This document shows positions 1 through 64,000 of a DNA stretch of 64,000 nt, one piece after another; within the stretch, counting starts at the first letter, position 1, and each line of letters starts with the position of its first letter. The notes beneath the pieces are model-generated. The model was not told the origin of the DNA and searched no databases. It was given only the letters and a program-made list of their open reading frames with translations. A program made the position numbers and the translations under genes. The DNA lies in NCBI RefSeq assembly GCF_023055435.1, contig NW_025963957.1, positions 6,820,001-6,884,000 of the forward strand, given 5' to 3'. The DNA is from Haliotis rufescens (Eukaryota).

Positions 1-3000
1 AAACCAGCTCGGAATGCTGTGACCCCAGTCACTACACTGTGTTACAGGGGGCATACGGCGCCACTCTCTCCCAGACAGGTAACTCTTGTATATGGAGCCA
101 CTCTCTCCCAGACAGGTAACTGTTGTATACGGAGCCACTCTCTACCAGACAGGTAACTGTTGTATACGGAGCCACTCTCTCCCAGACAGGTAACTGTTGA
201 ATACGGAGCCACTCTCTCCCAGACAGGTAACTGTTGTATACGGAGCCACTCTCTCCCAGACGGGTAACTGTTGTATACGGAGCCACTCTCTACCAGACAG
301 GTAACTGTTGTATACGGAGCCACTCTCTACCAGACAGGTAACTGTTGTATACGGAGCCACTCTCTCCCAGACAGGTAACTGTTGTATACAGAGCCACTCT
401 CTCCCAGACAGGTAACTGTTGTATACAGAGCCACTCTCTCCCAGACAGGTAACTGTTGTATACGGAGCCACTCTCTACCAGACAGGTAACTGTTGTATAC
501 GGAGCCACTCTCTCCCAGACAGGTAACTGTTGAATACGGAGCCACTCTCTCCCAGACAGGTAACTGTTGTATACGGAGCCGCTCTCTCCCAGACGGGTAA
601 CTGTTGTATACGGAGCCACTCTCTACCAGACAGGTAACTTTTGTATACGGAGCCACTCTCTACCAGACAGGTAACTGTTGTATACGGAGCCACTCTCTCC
701 CAGACAGATAACTATTGTATTCGGAGCCACTCTCTCCAAGACAGGTAACTGTTGTATATGGAGCCACTCTCTCCCAGACAGGTAACTGTTGTATACGGAG
801 CCGCTCTCTCCCAGACAGGTAACTGTTGTATACGGAGCCACTCTCTACCAGACAGGTAACTTTTGTATACGGAGCCACTCTCTCCCAGACAGGTAACTGT
901 TGTATACAGAGCCACTCTCTCCCAGACAGGTAACTGTTGTATACAGAGCCACTCTCTCCCAGACAGGTAACTGTTGTATACAGAGCCACTCTCTCCCAGA
1001 CAGGTAACTGTTGTATACGGAGCCACTCTCTCCCAGACAGGTAACTGTTGTATACGGAGCCACTCTCTCCCAGACAGGTAACTGTTGTATACGGAGCCAC
1101 TCTCTACCAGACAGGTAACTGTTGTATACGGAGCCACTCTCTCCCAGACAGGTAACTGTTGTATACAGAGCCACTCTCTCCCAGACAGGTAACTGTTGTA
1201 TACAGAGCCACTCTCTCCCAGACAGGTAACTGTTGTATACGGAGCCACTCTCTACCAGACAGGTAACTGTTGTATACGGAGCCACTCTCTCCCAGACAGG
1301 TAACTGTTGAATACGGAGCCACTCTCTCCCAGACAGGTAACTGTTGTATACGGAGCCACTCTCTCCCAGACGGGTAACTGTTGTATACGGAGCCACTCTC
1401 TACCAGACAGGTAACTTTTGTATACGGAGCCACTCTCTACCAGACAGGTAACTGTTGTATACGGAGCCACTCTCTCCCAGACAGATAACTATTGTATTCG
1501 GAGCCACTCTCTCCCAGACAGGTAACTGTTGTATATGGAGCCACTCTCTCCCAGACAGCTAACTGTTGTATACAGAGCCACTCTCTCCCAGACAGGTAAC
1601 TGTTGTATATGGAGCCGCTCTCTCCCAGACAGGTAACTGTTGTATACGGAGCCACTCTCTACCAGACAGGTAACTGTTGTATACGGAGCCACTCTCTCCC
1701 AGACAGGTAACTGTTGTATACAGAGCCACTCTCTCCCAGACAGGTTACTGTTGTATACAGAGCCACTCTCTCCCAGACAGGTACCTGTTGTATACAGAGC
1801 CACTCTCTCCCAGACAGGTAACTGTTGTATACGGAGCCACTCTCTACCAGACAGGTAACTGTTGTATACGGAGCCACTCTCTCCCAGACGGGTAACTGTT
1901 GAATACGGAGCCACTCTCTCCCAGACAGGTAACTGTTGTATACGGAGCCACTCTCTCCCAGACGGGTAACTGTTGTATACGGAGCCACTCTCTACCAGAC
2001 AGGTAACTTTTGTATACCGAGCCACTCTCTACCAGACAGGTAACTGTTGTATACGGAGCCACTCTCTCCCAGACGGGTAACTTCTGTATATGGAGACACT
2101 CAGATACTCAGAGGAAATTCTCTATTGTCATAATGCAACAACTGGCAGTAGTCGTGTCAGTATTCACCATGTTGGTTGTTTTTGCAGACCAAAAAATCCT
2201 AAAGATGATGTTCCTGTATGAGAAGCATGGCAAGGGTCTGAGTGATGCTAGGTATGTACACAGTCAGGACTGCTTCAAACACATAGCCATCCAAGCAACA
2301 TGTACCACCAAGCAAGGGACAGCTCTTGTAGCTCAGTCTCATGCTTTTAGGATGTTAGAAAATCTTCTGCAGTACATTAAGTTTTCTTAACATTGTACGG
2401 TACAATGCCGGAATTCAGATTTCTGGGGAGGTTATGGTGTAGTTATTATCTCTGCAGAGTTACATCCCTTGACATGCCAGAATCTGCTAGGCATGGGTTT
2501 AATTCTAATTAACAACCTTGGTTCTTCAGCACCATATCTGTTGTCATGTCTTTCACCAAGTTAGAGAAATGTCTGCTCCCACCATCACTTTCCATTTTCA
2601 CATGCAGTGATATGGACCAGTGAGGATCCGGGGCAGAATTGGTCTTCAGCAGCCCATGCTTGCTGTAAGAGGCGGCAACGCTTGTTGTAAGAGGCGACTA
2701 ACGGGATTGGGTGGTCAGGCTCCGTGACTTGCTTGTTTCCAAACTGCATAGATCATACTCATGATAAACAACATACAAACAAACACACAAACAAACATGT
2801 AGTGATATACTTGCATCCACGGGAGATCTCACTTATATCGCTTATGGACTCAAGCCATGTAAGGGCAGTTATGCATCGTCTTAAATTATATGTCTTGTTT
2901 TGTTAATATTATTTTAATACTTGTCAATTTTGTATGATCATGTGGGGTTTCTTTTTTGGACATTTGTAGAAGTCATTTAATAATTTTATAATTAAATTCT

Positions 3001-43700: not shown

Positions 43701-46700
43701 AGAATGGCAACAAATGATTTAACCCAAGAGCGTGATTGGTAGATGTCTCAACATGCATAGCATGTTTATCTGATGAATATTCTGTACCATTATCACACTG
43801 AAATAACGATTGCTAGATCTTGCCATAGAGTATCTGATCATTTTGAGCATCTCTGGAAAGTCAGGTTAATCTGATGTGATGGAGGTGAGTGAATAACGGA
43901 ATAAAAGCTCCTACGTTTTCTAGACAAAAGAGTTCCTGGCGAAGAATGCCCGAGACAAGGCGGACGCTGCAGGAATGACCCTGTTGCCTCATGGGAAGAT
44001 TACCTCCCAGCTGCCGGCCCCCGGAACCAAGATGACGGAACAGGAGCTGTCGGAGGTAAGGAGTATATTCTGTCTGTCTCAGTTGGAAAGTGCGCTATAC
44101 CGATTCCTGGTATGTACTGTGTTTCACGATGATTGTGCTTCAGATTAAGGACAAGCTGCTGAAAGAAGCCAAGGCAGTGTCGGCAACAACATCGTCCGAA
44201 TTCCTGAGGAAAGCTATCCGAGAAAAGCAAATGAAGAGAAATGGTAAATACCAGTCTTTGGATTATTTGTGTCTTGTTGATGCAAATGTCATAAAGATTT
44301 GTCATGTGGAAATTATCACCGTTTCAGTGAACATTCCGCTGCAGCCTGAGTGGCTGTTTCAGAGACCGTCCTTGACCTTGGACTTCATTGTTGGAGTGGA
44401 TGGACCCACTGATCATGTGAGTGACCTGTTTTATATCGAACATAATATCGAGAACCTGTGAGATGTTTATGTCACACTCTCCATTTGCTGTTGGGGTAAC
44501 TGTGTGGTGGAACGTGTTCCTGTTCCCGCCCACCCTCACCTCACCTCACCTCACCTCACCTCACCTCACCTCACCTCACCTCACCTCACCTCATAATATA
44601 CATAGGAGCATCTCTTGAAGTTCAATATTATCTTAACTGTTTACAATGGGAACACTATATCTTCCTCCTCATGTTTCAGAATATCGTGGCTCTGGGAACA
44701 TTGCCAGTTGCGCTTCAGGAACAAGCCATTTTGGATGATATCCTGTGTTGTATGCAGGTGTGTGGGCATCACGTTCTTGGCTCCGTGTTCAATATGTACA
44801 GCAGAGATTAAAACAAGAAACATCTACTTCATCCTAGAGACCCTAGGGTCCATTTTGTAGGCCAGAAAATGGTTTCTTGTGTTTAAAATAGATTGTCTCG
44901 GCAAAAACACCAAGATGTATGGGAAGACAAATAAATGATTTGAGGTCAATAGCAAAGAAAAAATAAAATTGAAGTTTGATATAGAAACATCAGGAAACTA
45001 TTTGAAACTTATTTTTTTCTTGACAAAGCTTGATGTTACTGTTGATGCTTCCAGGGCATTGAGGGAAAGTATATCCTAGCCCGAGCCCTCACGGAGAGAT
45101 ACGCTCCAAAAGAGTTCATGATAGACCAGAGTCTAGGTGAGTCACTGCAAGATATGTACTGTGTTATTGTGGTTCATGATAGATGAGGGTCTAGGTGAGT
45201 CGCTGCAAGATATGTACCGTGTTATTGTGGTTCATGATAGATGAGGGTCTAGGTGAGTCGCTGCAAGATATGTACCATGTTATTGTGGTTCATGATAGAT
45301 GAGGGTCTAGGTGAGTCGCTGCAAGATATGTACCGTGTTATTGTGGTTCATGATAGATGAGGGTCTAGGTGAGTCGCTGCAAGATATGTACCGTGTTATT
45401 GTGGTTCATGATAGATGAGGGTCTAGGTGAGTCGCTGCAAGATATGTACCGTGTTATTGTGGTTCATGATAGATGAGGGTCTAGGTGAGTCGCTGCAAGA
45501 TATGTACCGTGTTATTGTGGTTCATGATAGATGAGGGTCTAGGTGAGTCGCTGCAAGATATGTACCGTGTTATTGTGGTTCATGATAGATGAGGGTCTAG
45601 GTGAGTCGCTGCAAGATATGTACCGTGTTATTGTGGTTCATGATAGATGAGGGTCTAGGTGAGTCGCTGCAAGATATGTACCGTGTTATTGTGGTTCATG
45701 ATAGATGAGGGTCTAGGTGAGTCGCTGCAAGATATGTACCGTGTTATTGTGGTTCATGATAGATGAGGGTCTAGGTGAGTCGCTGCAAGATATGTACCGT
45801 GTTATTGTGGTTCATGATAGATGAGGGTCTAGGTGAGTCGCTGCAAGATATGTACCGTGTTATTGTGGTTCATGATAGATGAGGGTCTAGGTGAGTCGCT
45901 GCAAGATATGTACCGTGTTATTGTGGTTCATGATAGATGAGGGTCTAGGTGAGTCGCTGCAAGATATGTACCGTGTTATTGTGGTTCATGATGGATGAGG
46001 GTCTAGGTCTGGAATCCGCTGTGGCATATAAACAACATCTATTCAGTCTCGTCCTCCTACAAGAGTACTAATTGATATTATCCTAATGAAATGACAGTTC
46101 TCTTGAAGCGATATATTTATTTGAATAAAGAATGAAATTAATGACATCAAGTGTTTTCATATTGCTGACTAGGGCTGCAACGAATACACTATGAGGTGAA
46201 TACGTTTTGTATCCCGAGTATAGGGTAACGAATATGAATATTAATTCACGAATACAATAACAAGTCAGATGATGTATTATTTGTTATATTCAGTGAATCA
46301 TTAACATAAATCTTTTGACATGGTGTGTTAATTATAAATATATCATACATTTATATACTGCACTTATCCAGGTACTAGTATCTGCTCAAATGTGACAATG
46401 ACCAGTGACCCCAATCCTGTTAAATCAAATATTATCAGAGTGTTGTCTTTGAAGAAATCTATGCATATAATATGTTCTTATGGATATTTTTAGGTACAGG
46501 GTATGTAAATGCACATACTTGCATATTCATAAATATTTGATTCTAGTTGCAATGAATAACGAATTCAATTCATGAATGGATACGGTTCGATTCACCGAAT
46601 ACGCGAGTGAATCGTAACAGTCCTATTGCTGACAATTGCTTCAAAAAGTTGACGTCCGTATTCTTGAGCTGAGTGTGACATGTAGCGTGTCTGTGTTTGT

Positions 46701-49700: not shown

Positions 49701-52700
49701 TACAAACGTCTTGACATCATACCTGAATCAATGCGAATCTGATGAGATTAAGTGAAGAATTCATTCTTGGTTGAGATTATGTATTTGTAACTTGGACATT
49801 AAGGTAGATCTGTAGCATGTTGTCATTGATGCATTTATGTGTAAGGACTTCTGTTTGTCACGCTTGACTTTCTGCTGCAGGATTACATGGTGCTGGTCGC
49901 TCAGCTGGAACACCAGTACAGGCTGGTGAGTACCCCCCTACACCTTGGGTGATCAATGCATGGTCCTCAGATGATCCTTGTGTGATCCATGCATAATGCT
50001 TGTGTGATCCACGTTTGATCAATGCATGGTCCTTGTATGATCCTTGTGTGATCCATGCATAATGCTTGTGTGATCCACGTATGATCCATGCATGGTCCTT
50101 GTATGATCCTTGTGTGATCCATGCATGGTCCTTGTATGATCCTTTTATAATCCATGCATAATGCTTGTATGATCCACATATGATTAATATTTGATCCTTG
50201 TATGATCAATGTTTGATCCATGTATGATCCTTGTATGATCAATGTTTGATCAATGTATGATCCTTGTATGATCAATGTTTGATCCATGTATGATCCATGT
50301 GTGATCCATGTATGATGCTTATATAATCCTTGTATGATCCATGTATGACCCTTGTATGATCCTTGTGTTATAATAAACAGGTGACTGCTTGTCGCAAGAG
50401 GCGACTTTCAGGATTGGGTGGTCAGGCTCGCTGACTTGGTTGATGCATGTCATCGTATCCCAATTGCATGGATCGATGTTCATGATGTCAACCACTGGAT
50501 TGTGTGGTCAAGACTTGATTATTTACAAACCACCGTCTGGAATATTGCTGAGTGTGGCGTTAAACAACAAACAAACAAACAAATCATAATAATCTCTAGA
50601 ATATTTACAATATTTCTATTTTTGCCTTTCCTTAGATTGTCAGTATTATTAACGCTATAGGTCTCGAACTGATACATACCTACCAATACAAACCTATAAT
50701 GTACCAAAATATTATTATCAATCTAAAAATATCTTTCCTAGATACATGACCTTTTCGTAATCTGTTCTGAGTAATGTAAAAGCATCACCTTGACCTTATT
50801 TCCGGTCATAAGGTATATACTTTTCAGCTTTACTTCTGATTTTGGTATTGATAACATTACAACAAATAAGTTTCACAAGTTACAAACTCTAAGGATTGAT
50901 TAAAGTGCATGATAACCACCTAAAACTGACAACCACCATGCTGACTATACCCTGAGCAACATATTCTAATATTTTGCTGATGACGAGATTTGAATGACTG
51001 ACAAATACATACTTTGTAGTGTTCTCACACATGAAACAGTAGTCAATGGTGTAAACATGCCCCAACAGGGCCTCCTGGGGATAGTGTCAGTTGAGAAATA
51101 CCTGAAATAATAAATAATAATAATGATGATCGGATCTGTCACAGATTTATTTCTTTTGACCAAAATGGCGTCAACAGAAATCAGCGTGACGTCATATGCT
51201 TAACCTTATATCACAGCTAGTTGTGACTTGACTATTACATTATCAACCGTCTGTCTATTAACATCTTTACAGGGGGACAAAGTTTGAAAACTAGTAGGTC
51301 CTAATTTCTTAGCTTTAAACCCCTGACAAAATACAACCAGTTTGAAGGGCTAACATATGTGAATCTGCTGTTGGTAACTGGCATTGTCATGACACATTGA
51401 TTAACTGCACACTTGAATGTACGTTGTGCCAGGAAACCATGTCTTGTGTTCATGGATTCTGCAATGACATAAATAATGGAACATCTCACTTTTCTAATCC
51501 ATGCACTTTATTGTATCACTCGTCTATTTGTAGCTCACCTGTCAGAAAGTCCAATAAGGTTATATCATGGCACATTGTCCGTCATCCGCCTTTCCGGTTG
51601 TCCGTCCATCATTAACTTTTGCAATTCCCATCCAATGTTAAACATATCTATAGTGAAACATGGTAATATTCCAGGGCACGTTGAGCCTCCAGAAGCTGTG
51701 GTTCTACATCCAGCCCACGCTGAGGACACTGGAGATCCTGGCATCTGTCTCCAACTCCATCAACAGGGTAAGCAGAAGTCTAATAGTGGAGTCAGCTGGG
51801 GCCCTTCATCACATCATGTGGGAGTCAGCGGGGGCCCTTCATCACATCATGTGGGAGTCAGCTGGGGCCCTTCATCACATCACCTGGGAGTCAGCGGGGG
51901 CCGTTCATCACATCATGTGGGAGTCAGCGGGGGCCCTTCATCACATCATGTGGGAGTCAGCTGGGGCCCTTCATCACATCACCTGGGAGTCAGCAGGGGC
52001 CCTTCATCAGATCATGTTGGAGTCAGCGGGGGCTGTTCATCACATCATGTGGGAGTCAGCGGGGGCCGTTCATCACATCATGTGGGAGTCAGCCGGGGCC
52101 GTTCATCAGATCATGTGGGAGTCAGCGTGGGCCGTTCATCAGATCATGTGGGAGTCAGCGGGGGCTCTTCATCAGATCATGTGGGAGTCAGCGGGGGCCG
52201 TTCATCAGATCATGTGGGAGTCAGCCGGGGCCCTTCATCAGATCATGTGGGAGTCAGCTGGGACTCTTCATCAGATCATGTGGGAGTCAGCCGGGGCCGT
52301 TCATCAGATCATGTGGGAATCAGCGTGGGCCGTTCATCAGATCATGTGGGAGTCAGCGGGGGCCGTTCATCAGATCATGTGGGAGTCAGCCCGGGCCGTT
52401 CATCACATCATGTGGGAGTCAGCGGGGGCTGTTCATCACATCATGTGGGAGTCAGCGGGGGCCATTCATCAGATCATGTGGGAGTCAGCCGGGGCCGTTC
52501 ATCAGATCATGTGGGAGTCAGCGGGGGCCCTTCATCAGATCATGTGGGAGTCAGCGGGGGCTCTTCATCACATCATGTGGGAGTCAGCGGGGGCCGTTCA
52601 TCAGATCATGTGGGAGTCAGCGTGGGCCGTTCATCAGATCATGTGGGAGTCAGCTAGGGCTCTTCATCACATCATGTGGGAGTCAGCGGGGGCCCTTCAT

Positions 52701-55700
52701 CACATCATGTGGGAGTCAGCCGGGGCTGTTCATCAGATCATGTGGGAGTCAGCGGGGGCCGTTTTTTAGATAATGTGGGAGTCAGCGGGGGCCGTTCATT
52801 AGATCATGTGGGAGTCAGCGGGGGCCGTTCATCACATCATGTGGGAGTCAGCGGGGGCCCTTCATCACATCATGTGGGAGTAAGCGTGGGCCGTTCATCA
52901 GTTCATGTGGGAGTCAGCCGGGGCTGTTCATCAGATCATGTGGGAGTCAGCGGGGGCCCTTCATCAGATAATGTGTGAGTCAGCGTGGGCCGTTCATCAG
53001 ATCATGTGGGAGTCAGCGTGGGCCGTTCATCAGATCATGTGGGAGTCAGCGGGGGCCGTTCATCACATCATGTGGGAGTCAGCCGGGGCCGTTCATCACA
53101 TCATGTGGGAGTCAGCGGGGGCCGTTCATCACATCATGTGGGAGTCAGCGGGGGCCGTTCATCAGATCATGTGGGAGTCAGCGGGGGCTCTTCATCACAT
53201 CATGTGGGAGTCAGCGGGGGCCGTTCATCACATCATGTGGGAGTCAGCCGGGGCCGTTCATCAGATCATGTGGGAGTCAGAGTGGGCCGTTCATCAGATC
53301 ATGTGGGAGTCAGCGGGGGCTCTTCATCAGATCATGTGGGAGTCAGCGGGGGCGTTCATCACATCATGTGGGAGTCAGCCGGGGCCGTTCATCACATCAT
53401 GTGGGAGTCAGCGGGGGCCCTTCATCAGATCATGTGGGAGTCAGCGGGGGCCCTTCATCAGATCATGTGGGAGTCAGCTGGGACTCTTCATCAGATCATG
53501 TGGGAGTCAGCCGGGGCCGTTCATCAGATCATGTGGGAGTCAGCGTGGGCCGTTCATCAGATCATGTGGGAGTCAGCGGGGGCCGTTCATCAGATCATGT
53601 GGGAGTCAGCCCGGGCCGTTCATCACATCATGTGGGAGTCAGCGGGGGCTGTTCATCACATCATGTGGGAGTCAGCGGGGGCCATTCATCAGATCATGTG
53701 GGAGTCAGCCGGGGCCGTTCATCAGATCATGTGGGAGTCAGCGGGGGCCCTTCATCAGATCATGTGGGAGTCAGCGGGGGCTCTTCATCACATCATGTGG
53801 GAGTCAGCGGGGGCCGTTCATCAGATCATGTGGGAGTCAGCGTGGGCCGTTCATCAGATCATGTGGGAGTCAGCTAGGGCTCTTCATCACATCATGTGGG
53901 AGTCAGCGGGGGCCCTTCATCACATCATGTGGGAGTCAGCCGGGGCTGTTCATCAGATCATGTGGGAGTCAGCGGGGGCCGTTTTTTAGATAATGTGGGA
54001 GTCAGCGGGGGCCGTTCATTAGATCATGTGGGAGTCAGCGGGGGCCGTTCATCACATCATGTGGGAGTCAGCGGGGGCCCTTCATCACATCATGTGGGAG
54101 TAAGCGTGGGCCGTTCATCAGTTCATGTGGGAGTCAGCCGGGGCTGTTCATCAGATCATGTGGGAGTCAGCGGGGGCCCTTCATCAGATAATGTGTGAGT
54201 CAGCGTGGGCCGTTCATCAGATCATGTGGGAGTCAGCGTGGGCCGTTCATCAGATCATGTGGGAGTCAGCAGGGGCCCTTCATCACATCATGTGGGAGTC
54301 AGCGGGGGCTGTTCATCAGATCATGTGGGAGTCAGCGGGGGCTCTTCATCACATCATGTGGGAGTCAGCGGGGGCTGTTCATCACATCATGTGGGAGTCA
54401 GCGGGGGCCCTTCAGATCATGTGGGAGTCAGCGGGGGCTCTTCATCACATCATGTGGGAGTCAGCGGGGGCCGTTCATCACATCATGTGGGAGTCAGTGG
54501 GGGCTGTTCATCACATCATGTGGGAGTCAGCGGGGGCCCTTCATCAGATTATGTGGGAGTCAGCCGGGGCCGTTCATCACATCATGTGGGAGTCAGCGGG
54601 GGCCGTTCATCACATCATGGTTGAGCCAGCGGGGGCCGTTCATCACATCATGTGGGAGTCAGCGGGGGCCGTTCATCAGATCATGTGGGGCTGCTTCCAT
54701 CTTTTCCTCAGCTCAAACCTAGATGAGGACAACCTCACAAAGTGAATATCCATTCTGTGACTGTAAAACAATTGTTCATAGCGCATTAATAGAAAATTAT
54801 ATCTCTTGGGAAAAGACTACATAACTGCGTGGGTAAGAATTTGTGGGTGTGGGTGGGTGTGTGCGGGCGCACGGTAGAGTGGGTGAATTCAGAATGCCTG
54901 AAATTTGGTTTCTATACATTTAGTTGTATTTTATAAAAATGTTCTTCCTTCCCCATCCCCCTCATGTCTGATTTGTGGGTTTCTGCAGGGTGAGTTAATT
55001 GTTTTTGTTGCAGGGTGAGTTAATTGTTTGTGTTGCTTGTTGCAGGGTGAGTTAATTGTTTTTGTTGCAGGGTGAGTTAATTGTTTGTGTTGCTTGTTGC
55101 AGGGTGAGTTAATTGTTTGTGTTGCTTGTTGCAGGGTGAGTTAATTGTTTGTGTTGCTTGTTGCAGGGTGAGTGTATTGGAGGAGCCGTGCTCAGTCTGC
55201 TGCATGAGAAGACGTCCACGCTGATCGGGTAAACACAGCTCCTAGGCAGGAGAAACATTTGTTGGAATAAGTTGTCTAGTCTTACACTAGGCACACTAAT
55301 AGGCTGATCACCTACCCAGTACCTGACAGCTTCTCAAGTACCACACGAGTCGCCCGGATGGCCCAGTGGTCTAAGGTGCACTTTGTTGGTCCAGGTTCTG
55401 CTGGTCAGGGGTTTGAATCCCGGTTAACCCTGACCATGATCCCTGGTGTTGTCATGTCATGTATCAAAGGAAGCTACAGATCTTATGTTAGTGCAGAGTA
55501 AGCGTAAGTGGATAATAAAAATAAAAGCACCTGTTTACTTGTTTGGATTGGATCCGTTATGTTTCCTGTTTGGTATCTGGGTTTTGGGTGCTTGTTATGT
55601 CGTTTGTGATATTTCTGATGTAAGGATGAAATGGTTTTGTTTGAGATATGTTGTCTTCTCTTCTTGCAGTGATGCTAAAAGTCAAGAGCTGTGCCTCTAC

Positions 55701-58700
55701 CTAACACAGTCGGTGAGTACAGCTTGATCTCGCGAGTCTTCAAACCAGTAAACCCACTTGAATAATGAGAAAGTAAAGAATACAAAGGGGATTTACCCAT
55801 GAGTTGTTAATCTTAATATTTGCTCATCCATTTTTTGGTTGAAGTCACTGTGGTCATCTAAAGCTGTTCCACAGTCAGTAGGGACACCAGTCTGAATGGT
55901 TGTATGGTAGAGTTGTCTTCTTCTTCTTTATGCTGTGGGAACGGTCATTACGGGAATCTTGACATCTCTAACTCCACATGTAGTGACAATTATATTGTTG
56001 TGTATGTCTTCAGGAATGCCATCATAATGGATTTTAAAAACTTTTATGACAAACTTTCTATTTCCCAGATGAATTTAATGTTTTGTTCGTTTAGGCAGAT
56101 TTGTTCGACATTGCACAAATGGAAAAGTACTCCACTTTCCTTGTATATTCTTATTGTACCAGTTACATGACAGTTGAAATAATAGGGACATTTTAATTGA
56201 AAAACAGGAAATAATTTAGTTGGTGTTAAGAGTATTCGGCGTAACGACAGTCATTACATGCTTGTAAACATGACGGTCAGTCGGTTGTGAGTTCAACTCC
56301 AGGCCTGGTTGTAGGCTGCCTAGCACTGTGGGGAGCTGTGAGTGTTGGCAGTGATAGCATAGAGAACTCTGCGAACAGGGTGTCACTGGGGAACTGTGAC
56401 TGGTCGCAGTGATAGCGTAGAGAACTCCGCGAACAGGGTGTCACTGTGAGGAACTATGATTGGTCGCAGTGATAGCGTAGAGAACTCCGCGAACAGGGTG
56501 TCACTGTGAGGAACTGTGATTGGTCGCAGTGATAGCATAGAGAACTCCACGAACAGGATGTCACTGTGGGGAACTGTGACTGGTGGCATTTGTAGCGTAG
56601 AGAACTCCGCGAACAGGGTGTCACTGTGGGGAACTGTGACTGGTCGCAGTGGTAGCATAGAGAACTCCGCGAACAGGGTGTCACTGTGGGGAACTGTGAC
56701 TGGTCGCAGTGATAGCGTAGAGAACTCCACGAACAGGGTGTCACTGTGAGGAACTATGATTGGTCGCAGTGATAGCGTAGAGAACTCCGCGAACAGGGTG
56801 TCACTGTGAGGAACTGTGATTGGTCGCAGTGATAGCGTAGAGATCTCCACGAACAGGATGTCACTGTGGGGAACTGTGACTGGCGGCATTTGTAGCGTAG
56901 AGAACTCCGCGAACAGGGTGTCACTGTGGGGAACTGTGACTGGTCGCAGTGGTAGCGTAGAGAACTCCGCGAAATGGGTGTCACTGTGGGGAACTGTGAC
57001 TGGTCGCAGTGATAGCGTAGAGAACTCCGCGAACAGGGTGTCACTGTGGGGAACTGTGACTGGTCGCAGTGATAGCGTAGAGAACTCCGCGAACAGGGTG
57101 TCACTGTGGGGAACTGTGACTGGTCGCAGTGGTAGCATAGAGAACTCCGCGAACAGGGTGTCACTGTGGGGAACTGTGACTGGTCGCAGTGATAGCGCAG
57201 AGAACTCCGTGAACAGGGTGTCACTGTGGGGAACTGTGACTGGTGGCAGTGGTGGCGTAGAGAACTCCGCAAACAGGGTGTCATTGTGGGGAACTGTGGC
57301 AGTGGTAGCGTAGAGAACTCTATGAACGGCTGTCACTGTGCGGAGCTTGATGCCCTTTGTACCTGCTGCTGTGTATAGTTAAAGGTGTCTCAGTCTTCAG
57401 CAATATGATATGTGAAGTGAAAGGGATCGAAATAAAACCGTTGATGGTTTGTTTACAGGCTTGTGTTCCGTACTTCGAGATCTTGGAGAAGTGGATCTAC
57501 AAAGGCATTATATCCGACCCTTACACTGAGGTTTGTACTTGTCATAGATTATACCTACCTACCTACCTACATACATATATATATCTTTACTCTGACCCTC
57601 CACAGAGATCATGTCAACCAATCATTATGAAACCATTTGGCAATGGCCATTTTGTGTGGTGGATGGCTTGCACTATGGTTTTATTTCTCCAACTCCAGAC
57701 AGTTGTAAGAGTATTGTCCAAGATCACAGTTGAAATATTTTTGAAAGCTGACATCTGATTGGCCCTAAGCCCCACTATTGGTGGTAGAAGTTCCCCTGAG
57801 ATGTGGTGGGTTTGTCAGATGTTCACGGAGAAGGTGAACTATACATCTGATTTTTGAAAAACGACTGAATTCATCTTCAGTGCAATATCTCTAATGGGCA
57901 AGAAATCTGTTGATGTGTGACACAAGCCATATGTGTAGGCTGGGATGTGCCGTGCACCAAGTGTCCTTGTGTTTATGGAGCCGTGCAGCAAGTGGTCTTT
58001 GTTTCAGTTTCTGGTGGAGGAGAACGAGACCATTCAGAAGGAGAAACTACAGGAGGAGTACAACGATGCATATCCTTTCTGGATCTTGTCAAAAAATAAA
58101 AACTTTGAAAATATCATTCCACTATGGAAAAAGCTGAATGAAACAATGTCTGATTTTATTATTCCTCTGAAAACAATGAATAGAATAAGTGAATAAGAAT
58201 ACTTTGTTAAGAACAAATTAAGAAGTGCTCTTTAAGGATGGCAGAACTAAGACTTCTCTATTCCATTCTTTGTGTACGTCAACCTTAAACTTTGTAAGTT
58301 ATTCCAATGTGAGTTTAGGTAATGGTAGGTCTTAGCAAGCCTTCTGGCTAACAAGGGCAAAAGTTGTATTCTGCAACAAGGCGCATACATCACCTTGATT
58401 ATGCTGCATACTGGTACAGTGAAATTGTATAATCACTATACGCAGGAGACTTTGAGTCAGTGCATTAAGCCATGCATACACTTATGTTGAGTGTCCCTTG
58501 TGGTATAAGCCACGTATACACGGGATGTGAGTGTCCCTAGTGCTTTAAGCCACATATACACTGTATGTTGAGTGTCCCTAGTGCTTTAAGCCATGTATAC
58601 ACTGTATGTTGAGTGTCCCTAGTGCTATAAGCCATGTATACACTGTATGTTGAGTGTCCCTTGTGGTATAAGCCACGTATACACTGGATGTGAGTGTTCC

Positions 58701-61700
58701 AAGTGCTTTAAGCCACGTATACACTGTATGTTGAGTGTCCCTAGTGGTATAAGCAACGTATACACTGGATGTTGAGTGTCCCTAGTGCTATAAGCCACGT
58801 ATACACAGTATGTTGAGTGTCCCTACTGTTATAAGCCATGTATACACTACGTTGAGTGTCCCTAGTGCTATACGCCTCTGTCCCTAGTGCTATAAGCCAC
58901 GTATACACTGTATGTTGAGTGTCCTAAGTGCTATAAGCCACTGTCCCTAGTGCTATAAGCCATGTATACCCTGTATGTTGAGTGTCCCTAGTGCTATAAG
59001 CCATGTATACACTGTATGTTGAGTGTCCCTAGTGCTATAAGCCATGTATACCCTGTATGTTGAGTGTCCCTAGTGCTATAAGCCATGTATACACTGTATG
59101 TTGAGTGTCCCTAGTGCTATAAGCCACGTATACACTGTATGTTGAGTGTCCCTAGTGCTATAAGCCATGTATACACTGTATGTTGAGTGTCCCTAACTGT
59201 GCCACCTACTGGGAGCAGCACTACACCATCTGTAGAGAGAGGATCCCTGTGTTCCTGGAGACGATGGCAGACAAGATCCTCAACACCGGGAAGTACCTCA
59301 ACGTGGTCCGACTCTGTGGTAGGTGATCTCACCAGTGATATGTTTACAAAGAAGTTGTGGGTTCTGCCCCCGGTAACCCATGCTTATTGTAAGAGGTGAC
59401 TACATGGACTGGGTGGTCAGGCCCGGAGACATGGCTGATGGCACGTCACTGTACCCGGATGCATGGACTGGGTGGTCAGGCCTAGAGACATGGCTGATGG
59501 CACGTCACTGTATCCGGATGCATGGACTGGGTGGTCAGGCCTAGAGACATGGCTGTTGTCACGTCACTGTATCCGGATGCATGGACTGGGTGGTCAGGCC
59601 GGAGACATGGCTGATGGCACGTCACTGTACCCGGATGCATGGACTGGGTGGTCAGGCCTAGAGACATGGCTGATGGCACGTCACTGTATGCGGATGCATG
59701 GACTGGGTGGTTAGGCCTAGGAGACATGGACTGCGTGGTCAGGCCCGGAGACATGGCTGATGGCACGTCACTGTATCCGGATGCATGGACTGGGTGGTCA
59801 GGCCTAGAGACATGGCTGTTGTCACGTCACTGTATCCGGATGCATGGACTGGGTGGTCAGGCCCAGAGACATGGCTGATGGCACGTCACTGTATCCGGAT
59901 GCATGGACTGGGTGGTCAGGCCTAGAGACATGGCTGATGGCACGTCACTGTATCCGGATGCATGGACTGGGTGGTCAGGCCCGGAGACATGGCTGATGGC
60001 ACGTCACTGTATGCGGATGCATGGACTGGGTGGTTAGGCCTAGAGACATGGACTGCGTGGTCAGGCCCGGAGACATGGCTGATGGCACATCACTGTATCC
60101 GGATGCATGGACTGGGTGGTCAGGCCTAGAGACATGGCTGTTGTCACGTCACTGTATCCGGATGCATGGACTGGGTGGTCAGGCCCGGAGACATGGCTGA
60201 TGGCACGTCACTGTATCCGGATGCATGGACTGGGTGGTCAGGCCTAGAGACATGGCTGATGGCACGTCACTGTATCCGGATGCATGGACTGGGTGGTCAG
60301 GCCCAAAGACATGGCTGATGGCACGTCACTGTATCCAGATGCATGGACTGGGTGGTCAGGCCCGGAGACATGGCTGATGGCACGTCACTGTATCCGGATG
60401 CATGGACTGGGTGGTCAGGCCCAAAGACATGGCTGATGGCACGTCACTGTATCCGGATGCATGGACTGGGTGGTCAGGCCTAGAGACATGGCTGATGGCA
60501 CGTCACTGTATCCGGATGCATGGACTGGGTGGTCAGGCCCGGAGACATGGCTGATGGCACGTCACTGTATCCGGATGCATGGACTGGGTGGTCAGGCCCA
60601 AAGACATGGCTGATGGCACGTCACTGTATCCGGATGCATGGACTGGGTGGTCAGGCCCGGAGACATGGCTGATGGCACGTCACTGTATCCGGATGCATGG
60701 ACTGGGTGGTCAGGCCCAGAGACATGGCTGATGGCACGTCACTGTATCCAGATGCAAGGACTGGGTGGTCAGGCCTAGAGACACGGCTGATGGCACGTCA
60801 CTGTACCCGGATGCATGGACTGGGTGGTCAGGCCGGAGACATGGCTGATGGCACGTCACTGTATCCGGATGCATGGACTGGGTGGTCAGGCCGGAGACAT
60901 GGCTGATGGCACGTCACTGTACCCGGATGCATGGACTGGGTGGTCAGGCCCAGATGCATGGACTGGGTGGTCAGGCCTAGAGACATGGCTGTTGTCACGT
61001 CACTGTATCCGGATGCATGGACTGGGTGGTCAGGCCGGAGACATGGCTGATGGCACGTCACTGTATCCAGATGCATGGACTGGGTGGTCAGGCCTAGAGA
61101 CATGGCTGATGGCACGTCACTGTATGCGGATGCATGGACTGGGTGGTTAGGCCTAGGAGACATGGACTGGGTGGTCAGGCCCGGAGACATGGCTGATGGC
61201 ACGTCACTGTATCCAGATGCATGGACTGTTGCTTATAGCATCAACCACAGTTTTGTGTATTGTCTACATTTTTGACCAGTTTCACTGATAAATACACCCA
61301 ACCTTCATCAACTACATAAAGCTGACACTGTGATGTGGTTGAAATATGATGGACCTGATAGGCATGGGGTTTAGTGAAGAAAGGAGAGGTGTTTTGACTT
61401 AAGGTGTGGAAGTGGTCAGGGTTCAAGATTCTTCTCATTTGAGCCAAGGGTGTAGTTATGGGTAGTTTGTTGTTTTAGATACGTAGTTCCTTTGGCGATG
61501 TTAATCATATGAATGGGGGTACAGGAGGCCCGGTCGTCTAAGACGCCGCATTTCACAGCGTAGAGTTGCGCTCCTTGTGCACTCCAGAAATCTATGGTTG
61601 TGGCTTCAAATCCCGGTTCACCCCGATTATGTTTCTAGGTTTGTTAGCACCATACTCGTGGTTTTACCAAAGTGTTAAACGTCTGAGACCTGCATCACTT

Positions 61701-63077
61701 GGGGCTGTCCTCCCACATTAAGCTGAAATGTCGTGATATGACTGGAATACTGGTCAAAGTGGTTATAAACCCAACTCAATCACATATGGAGCCAGTGATG
61801 AATGTACTTTTGCACATGTGGTAAAAAGCCTGGAAGCTGCTGGCCATATGAATGGCAGTATTGAATTCAGGTATTGAATAGGGTATTAATGAGCTCTGTG
61901 AAAACGAAGGGCAAACCTTCTAAACTATGAGTATTGAGTTAAGAATGTGCATACCTGAACATCCCTATGGGTTCTGCCTCCCAAATAAAATACGTCTGTA
62001 TCCTTGGTATTTGCAGCTCGTGATGTGAAGTGTCCGTATGCCGAGGAGATTGTGTACACTCTGAAGGAGAGGCGGTACTATGACCAGATAGATAAAGCGT
62101 ATCACTACGCCAGCCGCCTCCTGCTCGACCTCCTCATGGAGGAGAAGGAACTCATGGCTCGCATCAGGTGAGGAGGTCACAGACTTTCTGAAGGTCTTCA
62201 AGGCAAGAAATGAGATGTATTTCAGAACGGATCCCAGTGGTCAACAAAGAAAGACGGACTTCCGGTCATCAGCATCAGTTTGGGGTTAAACGATCCGGCC
62301 CCCCCAAAAACCTTTCTTGTTGTATTTCAATTGACCATGTTGACCCACACATTGATACATCTTACATCTAATAGGCGTAAACATTGAACCAAATGAATGC
62401 ACTACTTCCTGCTGTGTTTCAGGTCAATAAAGCACTACTTCCTGCTGTGTTTCAGGTCAATAAAGCACTACTTCCTGCTGTGTTTCAGACCAATAAAGCA
62501 CTACTTCCTGCTGTGTTTCAGGTCAATAAAGCACTACTTCCTGCTGGACAAGGGCGACTTCATGGTGCAGTTCATGGACATGACGGAGGAGGAGATGAAG
62601 CAGAACATCGAAGATATCCTTGACTTGTTTGATAGGCATTACTTGGAAGTTGACGGACGACAAAGTAGACACAATTTTTGGATAATAACTTCTTTAATAC
62701 AGTAAAAGGACATATATAACGGTATAAGGATCTAAACTGAAACATCGCCTTTACAGTATTAAAGAAATTGTTATCCATAAATTCTGTCTACTTTGTCGTT
62801 AACACTTCTTTGAACGGTAGTTGTGTCAAAGTGTTGCAGGACGTAGATATTTACCATTTGGTGAAACTCAGGACTAGAAGCAGTCCCTGTGAAGCAATGT
62901 TTAAAATCAGTATTGTATTTTGTTGCATGTTTAATGTCAGGTGAAGTGTGATATCATTTTGAGATATTAGAATTCCTTAACCCACGTACATATCATGCCG
63001 ACTCGTCTCGAGTCCCTCTTGGAGCTGGCTCTCAGGACAAGCACAGCAAACGTGGACCCCTTCAAGGACGACCTCAG
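40797..63077 (+). CDS. TUBGCP2: Gamma-tubulin complex component 2 (GCP2), 5' 21 coding exons (577 codons), continues past window
   Basis: Exons 40797-40849, 41440-41521, 42145-42236, 43600-43657, 43924-44055, 44144-44243, 44328-44416, 44680-44757, 45055-45136, 46707-46784, 49607-49674, 49881-49925, 51675-51767, 55167-55228, 55670-55712, 57459-57530, 58008-58069, 59206-59318, 62017-62167, 62522-62613, 62990-63077, with phases consistent. Peptides MSEFKVHHHVSEL, FEYGLVNHAL, LSLQKLWFYIQP, PYFEILEKWIYKG, KILNTGKYLNVVR, RSIKHYFLLDKGDF, DPFKDDL are characteristic of GCP2. Confidence 0.96.
40929..41046. repeat. 16-bp minisatellite, about 7 copies
   Basis: GACCTAGTGCAACGAA. Confidence 0.9.
41567..41944 (+). 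mobile_element. tRNA(Leu-like)-headed SINE with internal 29-bp tandem expansion
   Basis: Head GGTGGCCGAGTGG...GGTTTGAACCCC, body CCTCCCACATTAAGCTGACA, (CACT)n tail. TGATATAACTGGAATACTGTTCAAAGTCG x4 at ~41802-41914. Relatives at 61525-61785, 15620-15742 and a head at 55350-55435. Confidence 0.7.
42612..42977. mobile_element. hAT-like MITE
   Basis: Ends TATGGCTGGGAC and GTCCCAGCCATG; 8-bp TSD ATATTGAC/ATATGGAC (7/8). Confidence 0.7.
43085..43575. mobile_element. Palindromic MITE with ~100-bp imperfect TIRs
   Basis: CAATCTCGTTAAGATCAAATCTTAGTTCTCG pairs with CGAGAACTAAGATCTGATTTTCATGAGATTG, and pairing continues inward. Confidence 0.75.
44533..44592. repeat. (CACCT)n microsatellite
   Basis: Seen directly in the sequence. 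Confidence 0.95.
45114..46008 (+). repeat. 58-bp minisatellite, about 15.4 copies, copying a TUBGCP2 exon end and donor
   Basis: GTTCATGATAGATGAGGGTCTAG|GTGAGTCGCTGCAAGATATGTACCGTGTTATTGTG; the first unit is the real exon end. Confidence 0.97.
46170..46625. mobile_element. hAT-like MITE
   Basis: Ends TAGGGCTGCAACGA and TCGTAACAGTCCTA; perfect 8-bp TSD TTGCTGAC; subterminal GAATA repeats. Confidence 0.85.
46937..49262. repeat. Compound 11/12-bp minisatellite
   Basis: Interleaved modules GTGTCCCATGCA, GTGTAACCTG(C/G)A and GTCCCATCAAT. Confidence 0.95.
49949..50368. repeat. Degenerate 11-bp-based repeat
   Basis: TGATCC(A/T)TGTA variants grouped in 33- and 66-bp blocks. Confidence 0.85.
51787..54688. 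repeat. 33-bp intronic minisatellite, about 88 copies
   Basis: GTGGGAGTCAGCGGGGGCCGTTCATCAGATCAT; higher-order duplication with a 1220-bp offset (52761 vs 53981). Confidence 0.97.
54984..55173 (+). repeat. 25/32-bp repeat copying a TUBGCP2 acceptor and exon start (7 copies)
   Basis: GCAG|GGTGAGT at 54985, 55010, 55042, 55067, 55099, 55131 and 55163; the last is the real acceptor. Confidence 0.95.
56325..57340. repeat. 60-bp minisatellite, about 16 copies
   Basis: TGGTCGCAGTGATAGCGTAGAGAACTCCGCGAACAGGGTGTCACTGTGGGGAACTGTGAC; 300-bp higher-order period. Confidence 0.97.
58070..59205 (+). other. U12-type (minor spliceosome) AT-AC intron in TUBGCP2
   Basis: 5' end ATATCCTTT; branch-point-like GTCCCTAAC at 59189-59197; ends in GCCAC. 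Removal restores ...YNDA/YWEQHY... in frame. Confidence 0.9.
58460..59195 (+). repeat. 41-bp minisatellite running into the U12 branch point
   Basis: GTGTCCCTAGTGCTATAAGCCA(T/C)GTATACACTGTATGTTGA. Confidence 0.95.
59403..61228 (+). repeat. ~59-bp minisatellite derived from a SINE body, about 31 copies
   Basis: CATGGACTGGGTGGTCAGGCCTAGAGACATGGCTGATGGCACGTCACTGTATCCGGATG. Confidence 0.95.
61525..61785 (+). mobile_element. Same SINE family as 41567-41944
   Basis: Colinear similarity over the whole length. Confidence 0.7.
62399..62546 (+). repeat. 33-bp in-frame repeat copying a TUBGCP2 acceptor and exon start
   Basis: GTCAATAAAGCACTACTTCCTGCTGTGTTTCAG; acceptor AGs end at 62422, 62455, 62488 and 62521. 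Confidence 0.95.
62614..62989 (+). other. U12-type AT-AC intron in TUBGCP2
   Basis: 5' end ATATCCTTG; perfect U12 branch point TTCCTTAAC at 62973-62981; ends in GTAC. Removal restores ...NIED/IMPTRLESLLELALR in frame. Confidence 0.93.
62626..62800. mobile_element. Penelope-like palindromic element, third copy, inside the U12 intron
   Basis: Inverted arms ACGACAAAGTAGACACAATTT...AAATTCTGTCTACTTTGTCGT; central AACGGTATAAGGATCTAAACTGAAACATCGCC. Confidence 0.6.
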
Positions 63078-64000
63078 GTAGGGACGGAGAGAATGGTTCA
63101 TGTTCAAGGATGACCTCAGGTAGGGAGGGAGAGATTGGTTCATGTTCAAGGATGACCTCAGGTAGTGAGGGAGAGATTGGTTCATGTTCAAGGATGCCCT
63201 CAGGTAGGGAGGGAGAGATTGGTTCATGTTCAAGGATGACCTCAGGTAGGGAGGGAGAGATTGGTTCATGTTCAAGATTGAACTCAGGTAGGGAGGGAGA
63301 GATTGGTTCATGTTCAAGGATGACCTCAGGTAGGGAGGGAGAGATTGGTTCATGTTCAAGAACGAACTCAGGTAGGGAGGGAGAGATTGGTTCATGTTCA
63401 AGGATGACCTCAGGTAGGGAGGGAGAGATTGGTTCATGTTCAAGGATGACCTCAGGTAGGGAGGGAGAGATTGGTTCATGTTCAAGGATGACCTCAGGTT
63501 GGTTCATGTTCAAGGATGCCTTCAGGTAGTGAGGGAGAGATTGGTTCATGTTCAAGGATGACCTCAGGTTGGTTCATGTTCAAGATTGAACTCAGGTAGG
63601 GAGGGAGAGATTGGTTCATGTTCAAGGATGACCTCAGGTAGGGAGGGAGAGATTGGTTCATGTTCAAGGATGACCTCAGGTAGTGAGGGAGAGATTGGTT
63701 CATGTTCAAGGATGACCTCAGGTAGGGAGGGAGAGATTGGTTCATGTTCAAGGATGGCCTCAGGTTGGTTCATGTTCAAGGATGCCCTCAGGTAGGGAGG
63801 GAGAGATTGGTTCATGTTCAAGGATGACCTCAGGTAGGGAGGGAGAGATTGATTCATGTTCAAGGATGACCTCAGGTAGTGAGGGAGAGATTGGTTCATG
63901 TTCAAGAACGAACTCAGGTAGGGAGGGAGAGATTGGTTCATGTTCAAGGATGACCTCAGGTAGGGAGGGAGAGATTGGTTCATGTTCAAGGATGACCTCA
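63061..64000 (+). repeat. 42-bp (some 28-bp) minisatellite copying a TUBGCP2 exon end and donor, about 23 copies, runs off the window
   Basis: TTCAAGGATGACCTCAG|GTAGGGAGGGAGAGATTGGTTCATG. Confidence 0.97.

What the first reader, a model, noticed from the sequence alone, without database searches (positions are those of the whole stretch)
45114..46008. Fourteen perfect decoy GTGAGT donors behind a TUBGCP2 exon, all leading to a stop
Seen: CTAG|GTGAGT recurs every 58 nt from 45137 to 45949. The copies are nearly identical to each other but read GATGAGGGTCTAG where the exon has GACCAGAGTCTAG. That change creates the TGA reached in frame on read-through, so any decoy use gives a premature stop. 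The decoys have the same U1 complementarity as the real site.
Basis: seen in the sequence. Interest (0 to 1): 0.7.

Follow-up and report, generated by a model that had tools for sequence, protein, structure and literature searches.

The report
Splice-donor minisatellite in abalone TUBGCP2
A 58-base repeat has copied the end of one exon of an abalone gamma-tubulin-complex gene, splice signal included, 14 extra times into the next intron; the two RNA-like assemblies examined join at the first, true signal, so it is likely a tolerated repeat of a kind already known from human and lancelet genes rather than a splicing switch.

Summary
A 58-nt minisatellite (45114-46008) starts 23 nt inside coding exon 9 of abalone TUBGCP2 and repeats its donor 14 times; read-through meets TGA at 45184. 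The implied function does not hold. Two RNA-like assemblies from two studies join the first donor to acceptor 46707, and no decoy junction was seen (contigs drop rare forms). The stop is incidental: every decoy tested still gives a premature stop with the exon's own letters, about 81% of random arrays would too, and two of the three changed letters already sit in the single spare copy of a related species that has no array. Two other species carry that spare copy only, so the array is likely a recent expansion. DNA runs from two other studies hold it. It is a new member of the F7/CBS/lancelet 'mirage' class; this scan has reported many such arrays elsewhere in this genome. Side result: in 396 kb of kinesin and myosin genes, minisatellites lie at exon edges 2-3 times more often than chance.

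The parts
44680..44757 (+). TUBGCP2 coding exon 8
   Evidence: exact match to P0002; joined to exon 9 in X15 and X18
45055..45136 (+). TUBGCP2 coding exon 9 (82 nt, aa 229-255); its last 23 nt begin the array
   Evidence: EFMIDQSLD is kept in all 7 Haliotis records and 4 other mollusc records
45137..45142 (+). authentic 5' splice donor TAG|GTGAGT
   Evidence: RNA-like contigs of X15 (depth 73.6) and X18 (7.67) leave here for exon 10
45114..46008 (+). 58-nt minisatellite, 15.4 copies; unit = 35 nt of intron start + 23 nt of exon-end-like sequence
   Evidence: unit contig in DNA runs X7 and X2
45184..45186 (+). in-frame TGA met on read-through of the true donor
45195..45954 (+). 14 pseudo-donors TAG|GTGAGT, 58 nt apart, identical to the true donor from -6 to +7
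   Evidence: no junction from them seen in X15 or X18 contigs
45984..46012 (+). terminal spare exon-end copy with a weak GTCTGG donor; corresponds to the single spare copy in organisms B and C, the likely seed
   Evidence: X13 and X14 contigs run from the exon end through one unit into the post-array flank; donor score 3.7 bits
46707..46784 (+). TUBGCP2 coding exon 10
   Evidence: covered at depth 73.6 by the same X15 contig, with no extra contig

Best explanation
This is a 58-nt intronic minisatellite that begins inside exon 9 of abalone TUBGCP2 and repeats the splice donor 14 times; it likely grew recently by slippage or unequal exchange from an older spare copy of the exon end, and is likely silent because the first donor after the exon's acceptor is chosen. 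Shown: the anatomy; first-donor use in two RNA-like assemblies; a single spare copy and no array in two other species; stops that do not depend on the changed letters. Inferred, origin: the ancestral intron held exon end, 35 nt of intron, then a diverged 25-nt exon-end copy with a weak donor. Mispairing of exon end with spare copy, resolved in their shared GTCTAGGT, put spare-type exon ends in front of the strong donor; one slightly mutated unit then amplified while the boundary halves kept ancestral letters. Inferred, silence: exon definition or first-site choice as shown for human F7, with nonsense-mediated decay clearing any rare leak as a by-product.
For: X15 (study P6) and X18 (study P7) join exon 9 straight to exon 10. 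On the far flank, X15's depth over 45900-46004 is accounted for by the 88-nt unit contig alone, and exon 10 has exactly 73.6, so no decoy-junction contig was laid. X13 (organism B) and X14 (organism C) run through one unit only and share the first unit's letters at 45956 and 45972; C matches the last unit at the listed sites 45993, 45994 and 45997. Stops remain in the counterfactual for 4 of 4 decoys tested. Chance of a stop on first-decoy use is 0.81 in 2106 simulated cases, and 14 of 27 other TUBGCP2 introns have an in-frame stop in their first 58 nt. Such arrays are common here: 6 of 26 arrays in TUBGCP2 and the URB1-like gene span a splice boundary, and 6 of 110 kinesin or myosin exon hits elsewhere have a donor-spanning array. 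A stop-free in-frame acceptor array in the same gene leaves no insertion in 7 of 7 Haliotis protein records. PMC1557585 shows only the most upstream of identical F7 donors is used, including against copies that would give no stop (abstract, Introduction, one Results section and Discussion read).
Against: X15 and X18 are RNA by the tool's guess. X15 holds the unit at depth 6.1 against 73.6 spliced: about 0.6-0.9% per copy if it is whole intron or DNA carry-over, but up to about 8% if each molecule held one unit. All 8 donor arrays first examined give a stop or frameshift on first-decoy use (one read by eye; about 0.19 by chance), and 6 of 8 have a stop before the first decoy against 44-52% expected, a lean that is not significant. 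In F7, a perfect CAG|gtgagt copy did compete with a weaker first site, and this donor is one letter from that. Polarity rests on two unnamed species whose relationships I did not establish. Scanning was shown in mammalian cells, not molluscs.
Confidence: 0.85

Rival explanations
1. Leaky decoys act as a copy-number- or stress-dependent dimmer: some transcripts splice at downstream copies, meet the TGA and are destroyed, so longer alleles or heat lower GCP2.
For: Decoys equal the true donor in score and are no more folded (unpaired 0.24-0.32 against 0.22-0.30). Decay would hide the products. Human 6-16 and CBS arrays do use their first two pseudo-sites (PMC1557585 Introduction). Heat shock activates latent donors in human cells (PMC3510495, abstract and outline only). 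Unit-to-flank depth ratios of 8.6 (X7) and 9.5 (X2) against 13.3 expected hint at length variation (the tool warns depth is no copy number).
Against: No decoy junction in 2 of 2 RNA-like runs. The array is absent in organisms B and C, so it is not a conserved control element. Similar arrays sit on about 5% of sampled exons, which argues against a gene-specific device.
Confidence: 0.08
2. The decoys are silent because of the upstream in-frame TGA (suppression of splicing at latent donors), and the changed letters were kept because they make that stop.
For: The TGA lies 11 nt before the first decoy and precedes all 14. 6 of 8 donor arrays have a stop before decoy 1. The model is in print (PMC1524910, start of abstract in a search listing; PMC3510495 abstract).
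Against: The changes predate the strong decoys: the lone spare copy in B and C precedes a weak donor, and B has no TGA. Two arrays (URB1-like 53-2101, kinesin L114) have no stop before decoy 1. 6 of 8 is within chance. The F7 study reports stop-free pseudo-sites unused (given there as unpublished data).
Confidence: 0.05
3. The array is an assembly artefact, or far shorter in real animals.
For: Depth ratios (8.6, 9.5) are below the 13.3 expected from the assembly. No read or contig spanning the whole array was seen.
Against: DNA runs X7 (study P4) and X2 (study P2), neither marked as the source, hold the unit contig at about 130 and 113 against flanks of 15 and 12. Single-letter variants in units 1, 3 and 15 include letters shared with other species.
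Confidence: 0.02

Closest known systems
Human F7 intron 7 37-bp VNTR (Borensztajn et al. 2006, PMC1557585; abstract, Introduction, Results section 9 and Discussion read)
   Same: First unit spans the exon-intron boundary; identical pseudo-donors follow the true one; only the first is used.
   Different: Here 58 nt x 15 with 23 exonic nt, against 37 nt x 5-9 with 4; the donor is stronger (TAG|GTGAGT); the pseudo-sites' ability to function and length polymorphism are not shown here.
Human 6-16, CBS intron 13, LAMIN B2 and PDGF intron 4 minisatellites (known to me only through the Introduction of PMC1557585)
   Same: 10-25 reiterated donors behind the authentic one; LAMIN B2 and PDGF use only the first.
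   Different: 6-16 and CBS also use two pseudo-sites; no such use was seen here at contig level.
Lancelet 'mirages' in Adh3, troponin C, globins BflGb6/BflGb9 and PGBD5 (PMC3087553 and PMC3902484, passages read)
   Same: Minisatellite-like duplications of intron-exon boundaries in a marine invertebrate, on donor and acceptor sides, reported not to disturb splicing; boundary units escape homogenisation.
   Different: A mollusc; here the pre-expansion state is visible in two related species, and a rough rate (about 5% of sampled donors) is estimated.
Latent 5' splice sites and suppression of splicing (PMC3510495, abstract; PMC1524910, search listing)
   Same: Intronic donor matches preceded by an in-frame stop and normally unused.
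   Different: Those are scattered chance matches; these are exact tandem copies of the true donor, and stop dependence is untested.

Membership tests
Junction-spanning minisatellite (F7 type, 'mirage') | Head-to-tail array of minisatellite-sized units | tested here: met
   58 nt x 15.4, 99% matches
Junction-spanning minisatellite (F7 type, 'mirage') | First unit spans a real exon-intron boundary | tested here: met
   starts 23 nt inside exon 45055-45136; junction used in RNA-like contigs
Junction-spanning minisatellite (F7 type, 'mirage') | Pseudo-sites match the authentic site | tested here: met
   identical from -6 to +7, same matrix score
Junction-spanning minisatellite (F7 type, 'mirage') | Normal mRNA uses the authentic site | tested here: met
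   2 of 2 RNA-like runs, contig level only
Junction-spanning minisatellite (F7 type, 'mirage') | Length varies between alleles | tested here: inconclusive
   differs between species; within the species only depth ratios 8.6 and 9.5 against 13.3
Junction-spanning minisatellite (F7 type, 'mirage') | Boundary units excluded from homogenisation | tested here: met
   first and last units carry letters shared with organisms B or C; 12 internal units are identical
Junction-spanning minisatellite (F7 type, 'mirage') | Pseudo-sites become active when the first is lost | not testable with these tools
   needs a minigene
Regulated unproductive splicing (poison donor coupled to decay) | The stop-bearing isoform is made | tested here: inconclusive
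   none in contigs of X15 and X18, but contigs drop rare forms and no raw mRNA reads were listed
Regulated unproductive splicing (poison donor coupled to decay) | The alternative site is conserved in related species | tested here: not met
   organisms B and C have no strong decoy, only one weak spare site
Latent donors under suppression of splicing | In-frame stop upstream of the latent donor | tested here: met
   TGA 45184; also true of 14 of 27 other introns at this length
Latent donors under suppression of splicing | Silence depends on that stop | not testable with these tools
   needs a stop-removal minigene

The most novel reading that the evidence does not exclude
Abalone minisatellites are born preferentially at exon edges, so thousands of introns carry ladders of exact decoy donors whose length varies between animals; long alleles or heat stress leak splicing into those decoys and into decay, making this array a length-dependent dimmer of an essential microtubule-nucleation gene. 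The first half alone (birth biased to exon edges) I put at about 0.55, from 13 of 26 and 15 of 72 arrays at edges; the probability given is for the whole claim.
Probability: 0.07. Interest if true: 0.65.

Novelty: new member of a known kind. Interest (0 to 1): 0.18.

Why it matters
On its own it matters little: it is one more silent splice-junction minisatellite. It is a clean example, because the pre-expansion state survives in two related species and shows that the stop-making letters came before the decoys. The wider pattern is more useful. If about 5% of abalone donors carry such ladders and arrays do arise near exon edges, the genome offers a large natural test of how the first of many identical donors is chosen, and a hint that splice-site neighbourhoods are prone to tandem duplication.

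Tried and rejected
PDB sequence search with the 27-aa exon found nothing; identity came. RNA folding does not mask the decoys more than the true donor. A 12-nt in-frame microexon (TAG at 45240, then decoy) would give a stop-free DEGL insertion, but its acceptor scores 3.4 bits against a median of 10.6, and the RNA-like contigs show no insertion. An old full 58-nt duplicate as seed is not supported: the post-array flank resembles the intron start no better than random intron (24% score as well). A seemingly stop-free in-frame donor array in L103 was a wrong frame; the true frame stops at once. The first edge test used higher-order periods and gave no excess of spanning arrays (5 against 4.2, p 0.42); the first kinesin test gave 5 against 2.4-3.7 (p 0.09-0.30). 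X2 had no cover just past 46005, which shows nothing. Loci L026-L085 and L010-L025 were fetched but not used in the edge tests. Paper searches for abalone minisatellites at splice sites, and for enrichment at exon boundaries, found nothing on point; the library lacks most subscription journals. No supplements were read.

Full report
Observation. The array is there as described: 45114-46008, period 58, 15.4 copies, 99% matches. CTAG|GT recurs every 58 nt from 45137 to 46007. The first site is the true donor, 14 more read GTGAGT, and the last is a weak GTCTGG. Twelve of 15 units are identical. The unit matched only this locus in G000 (15 of 15 matches).

Gene. A neighbouring exon matched Haliotis gamma-tubulin complex component 2 at 100% (P0002). 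Thirty exons across the window and adjacent G000 stretches splice to exactly that protein. The exon in question is coding exon 9, 45055-45136, and its acceptor partner is 46707. EFMIDQSLD is kept in all 7 Haliotis records and in 4 other mollusc records, so the repeat's GATGAGGG is the derived form.

The stop. It is not what makes decoys unproductive. With the exon's letters put back in silico, decoy 1 frameshifts to a stop 79 nt into exon 10, and decoys 2-4 stop within the array (4 of 4 tested). In 2106 simulated pairings of real intron starts with real array periods, 81% gave a stop or frameshift on first-decoy use. Fourteen of 27 other TUBGCP2 introns have an in-frame stop in their first 58 nt.

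RNA. Runs X15 and X18 (RNA by the tool's guess; two studies) each gave a contig joining exon 8 to 9 and leaving at the first donor for exon 10, at depths 73.6 and 7.67. On the far flank, X15 showed only that contig on exon 10 and an 88-nt repeat-unit contig at 6.1, with no room in the depth table for a decoy-junction contig (only 15 of 50 joints were printed). The unit contig is about 0.6-0.9% of spliced depth per copy if it is whole intron or DNA. Contigs drop rare forms, and no raw mRNA run was listed, so low-level leak is untested.

DNA and origin. X7 and X2, from studies other than the possible source, hold the unit contig at about 130 and 113 against flanks of 15 and 12, so the array is real. 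The ratios 8.6 and 9.5 are below the 13.3 expected from the assembly, a rough hint of shorter alleles. Organisms B (X13) and C (X14) have no array: their contigs run from the exon through one unit straight into the post-array flank. Both share the first unit's letters at 45956 and 45972. C matches the last unit at the three listed sites; rows unique to C were not all printed, so its TGA is likely, not shown. B differs at 45993, 45994 and 45997, which removes the TGA, yet keeps two of the three letters that separate the unit from the exon. So a diverged 25-nt copy of the exon end with a weak donor likely predates the array. Mispairing of exon end and spare copy, resolved in their shared GTCTAGGT, would create the strong decoys; amplification of one unit would give the rest. 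This route is inference.

Why the first donor wins. Score and predicted folding do not separate true from decoy donors, which leaves position. In human F7, identical pseudo-donors are functional but only the most upstream is used, and stop-free copies are also ignored (PMC1557585; abstract, Introduction, Results section 9 and Discussion read). A perfect CAG|gtgagt copy did compete there with a weaker first site, so the analogy is close but not exact. Lancelet 'mirages' are the invertebrate counterpart and are reported not to disturb splicing (PMC3087553 and PMC3902484, passages). In this gene a 33-nt acceptor array reads in frame without a stop, yet none of 7 Haliotis protein records carries the insertion; these are predicted records, so this is weak support.

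How common. In TUBGCP2 and the upstream URB1-like gene (name recalled, not from a call; exons read by eye and checked as one open frame), 6 of 26 minisatellites span a splice boundary (expected 2.5-3.6, p 0.03-0.14), and 13 of 26 span or lie within 25 nt (expected 4.3-5.3, p under 0.001). That set includes the finding itself and the threshold was chosen after looking; a first version with higher-order periods showed no spanning excess. As an independent test I took 110 of the 246 kinesin and myosin exon hits, those inside 40 fetched stretches (396 kb). Of 80 arrays, 8 touching stretch ends were dropped. Six of 72 spanned a donor (expected 1.2-1.9, p 0.001-0.01), none spanned an acceptor (expected 1.2-1.9), and 15 of 72 spanned or lay within 50 nt of an edge (expected 5.3-6.5, p 0.0002-0.001). 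Exon edges there are estimated from domain hits and can be drawn into arrays, and the null is not GC-matched (arrays 45% GC, the rest 40%), so the 2-3-fold excess is suggestive. All 8 donor arrays first examined are unproductive on first-decoy use and 6 of 8 stop before decoy 1; neither departs clearly from chance.

Prior notes. This scan has 61 notes fitting this look-up elsewhere in the genome; the 8 shown reached the same kind of verdict. They are unchecked AI notes: they gave me the 'mirage' label and papers, and are not counted as support. Searches for a published account in abalone, or of enrichment at exon edges, found none, in a library that lacks most subscription journals.

Verdict. 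A real, likely recent and likely silent splice-donor minisatellite: a new member of a known kind. The stop codon is a by-product. Interest 0.18.

Noticed in passing
window 63061-64000 (continues to 64021 in L006): Second donor array in TUBGCP2: 42-nt unit, about 23 copies of CAG|GTAGGG after exon 21; read-through stops at once.
   Followed up: partly
window 62399-62546: 33-nt acceptor array before exon 20; upstream copies would add 11 residues each with no stop, but none of 7 Haliotis protein records shows it.
   Followed up: partly
window 54984-55173: Acceptor array before exon 14 whose unit holds CAG|G|GTGAGT, an acceptor and a donor-like motif one base apart.
   Followed up: no
window 53-2101: 37-nt array, about 55 copies of CAG|GTAACT, behind an exon of a URB1-like gene (name recalled); no stop before the first decoy, frameshift on use.
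   Followed up: partly
window 58070-59205 and 62614-62989: Two AT-AC introns in TUBGCP2 with ATATCCTT donors, likely minor-spliceosome type; the 41-nt array at 58459-59195 ends at the likely branch site.
   Followed up: partly
window 46168-46625: High-copy element in the same intron (thousands of contigs lay on it); an organism B contig skips 46159-46624, so it is likely a recent insertion.
   Followed up: partly
L088, L093, L103, L104, L114, L115, L125 (G000 kinesin and myosin genes): Further donor-duplicating arrays; with the edge test they suggest minisatellites cluster at exon edges 2-3 times more than chance.
   Followed up: partly
window 49881-51680, exon 12/13 junction: The three H. rubra records read YSPCML where the others read YRL at this junction; cause not examined.
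   Followed up: no
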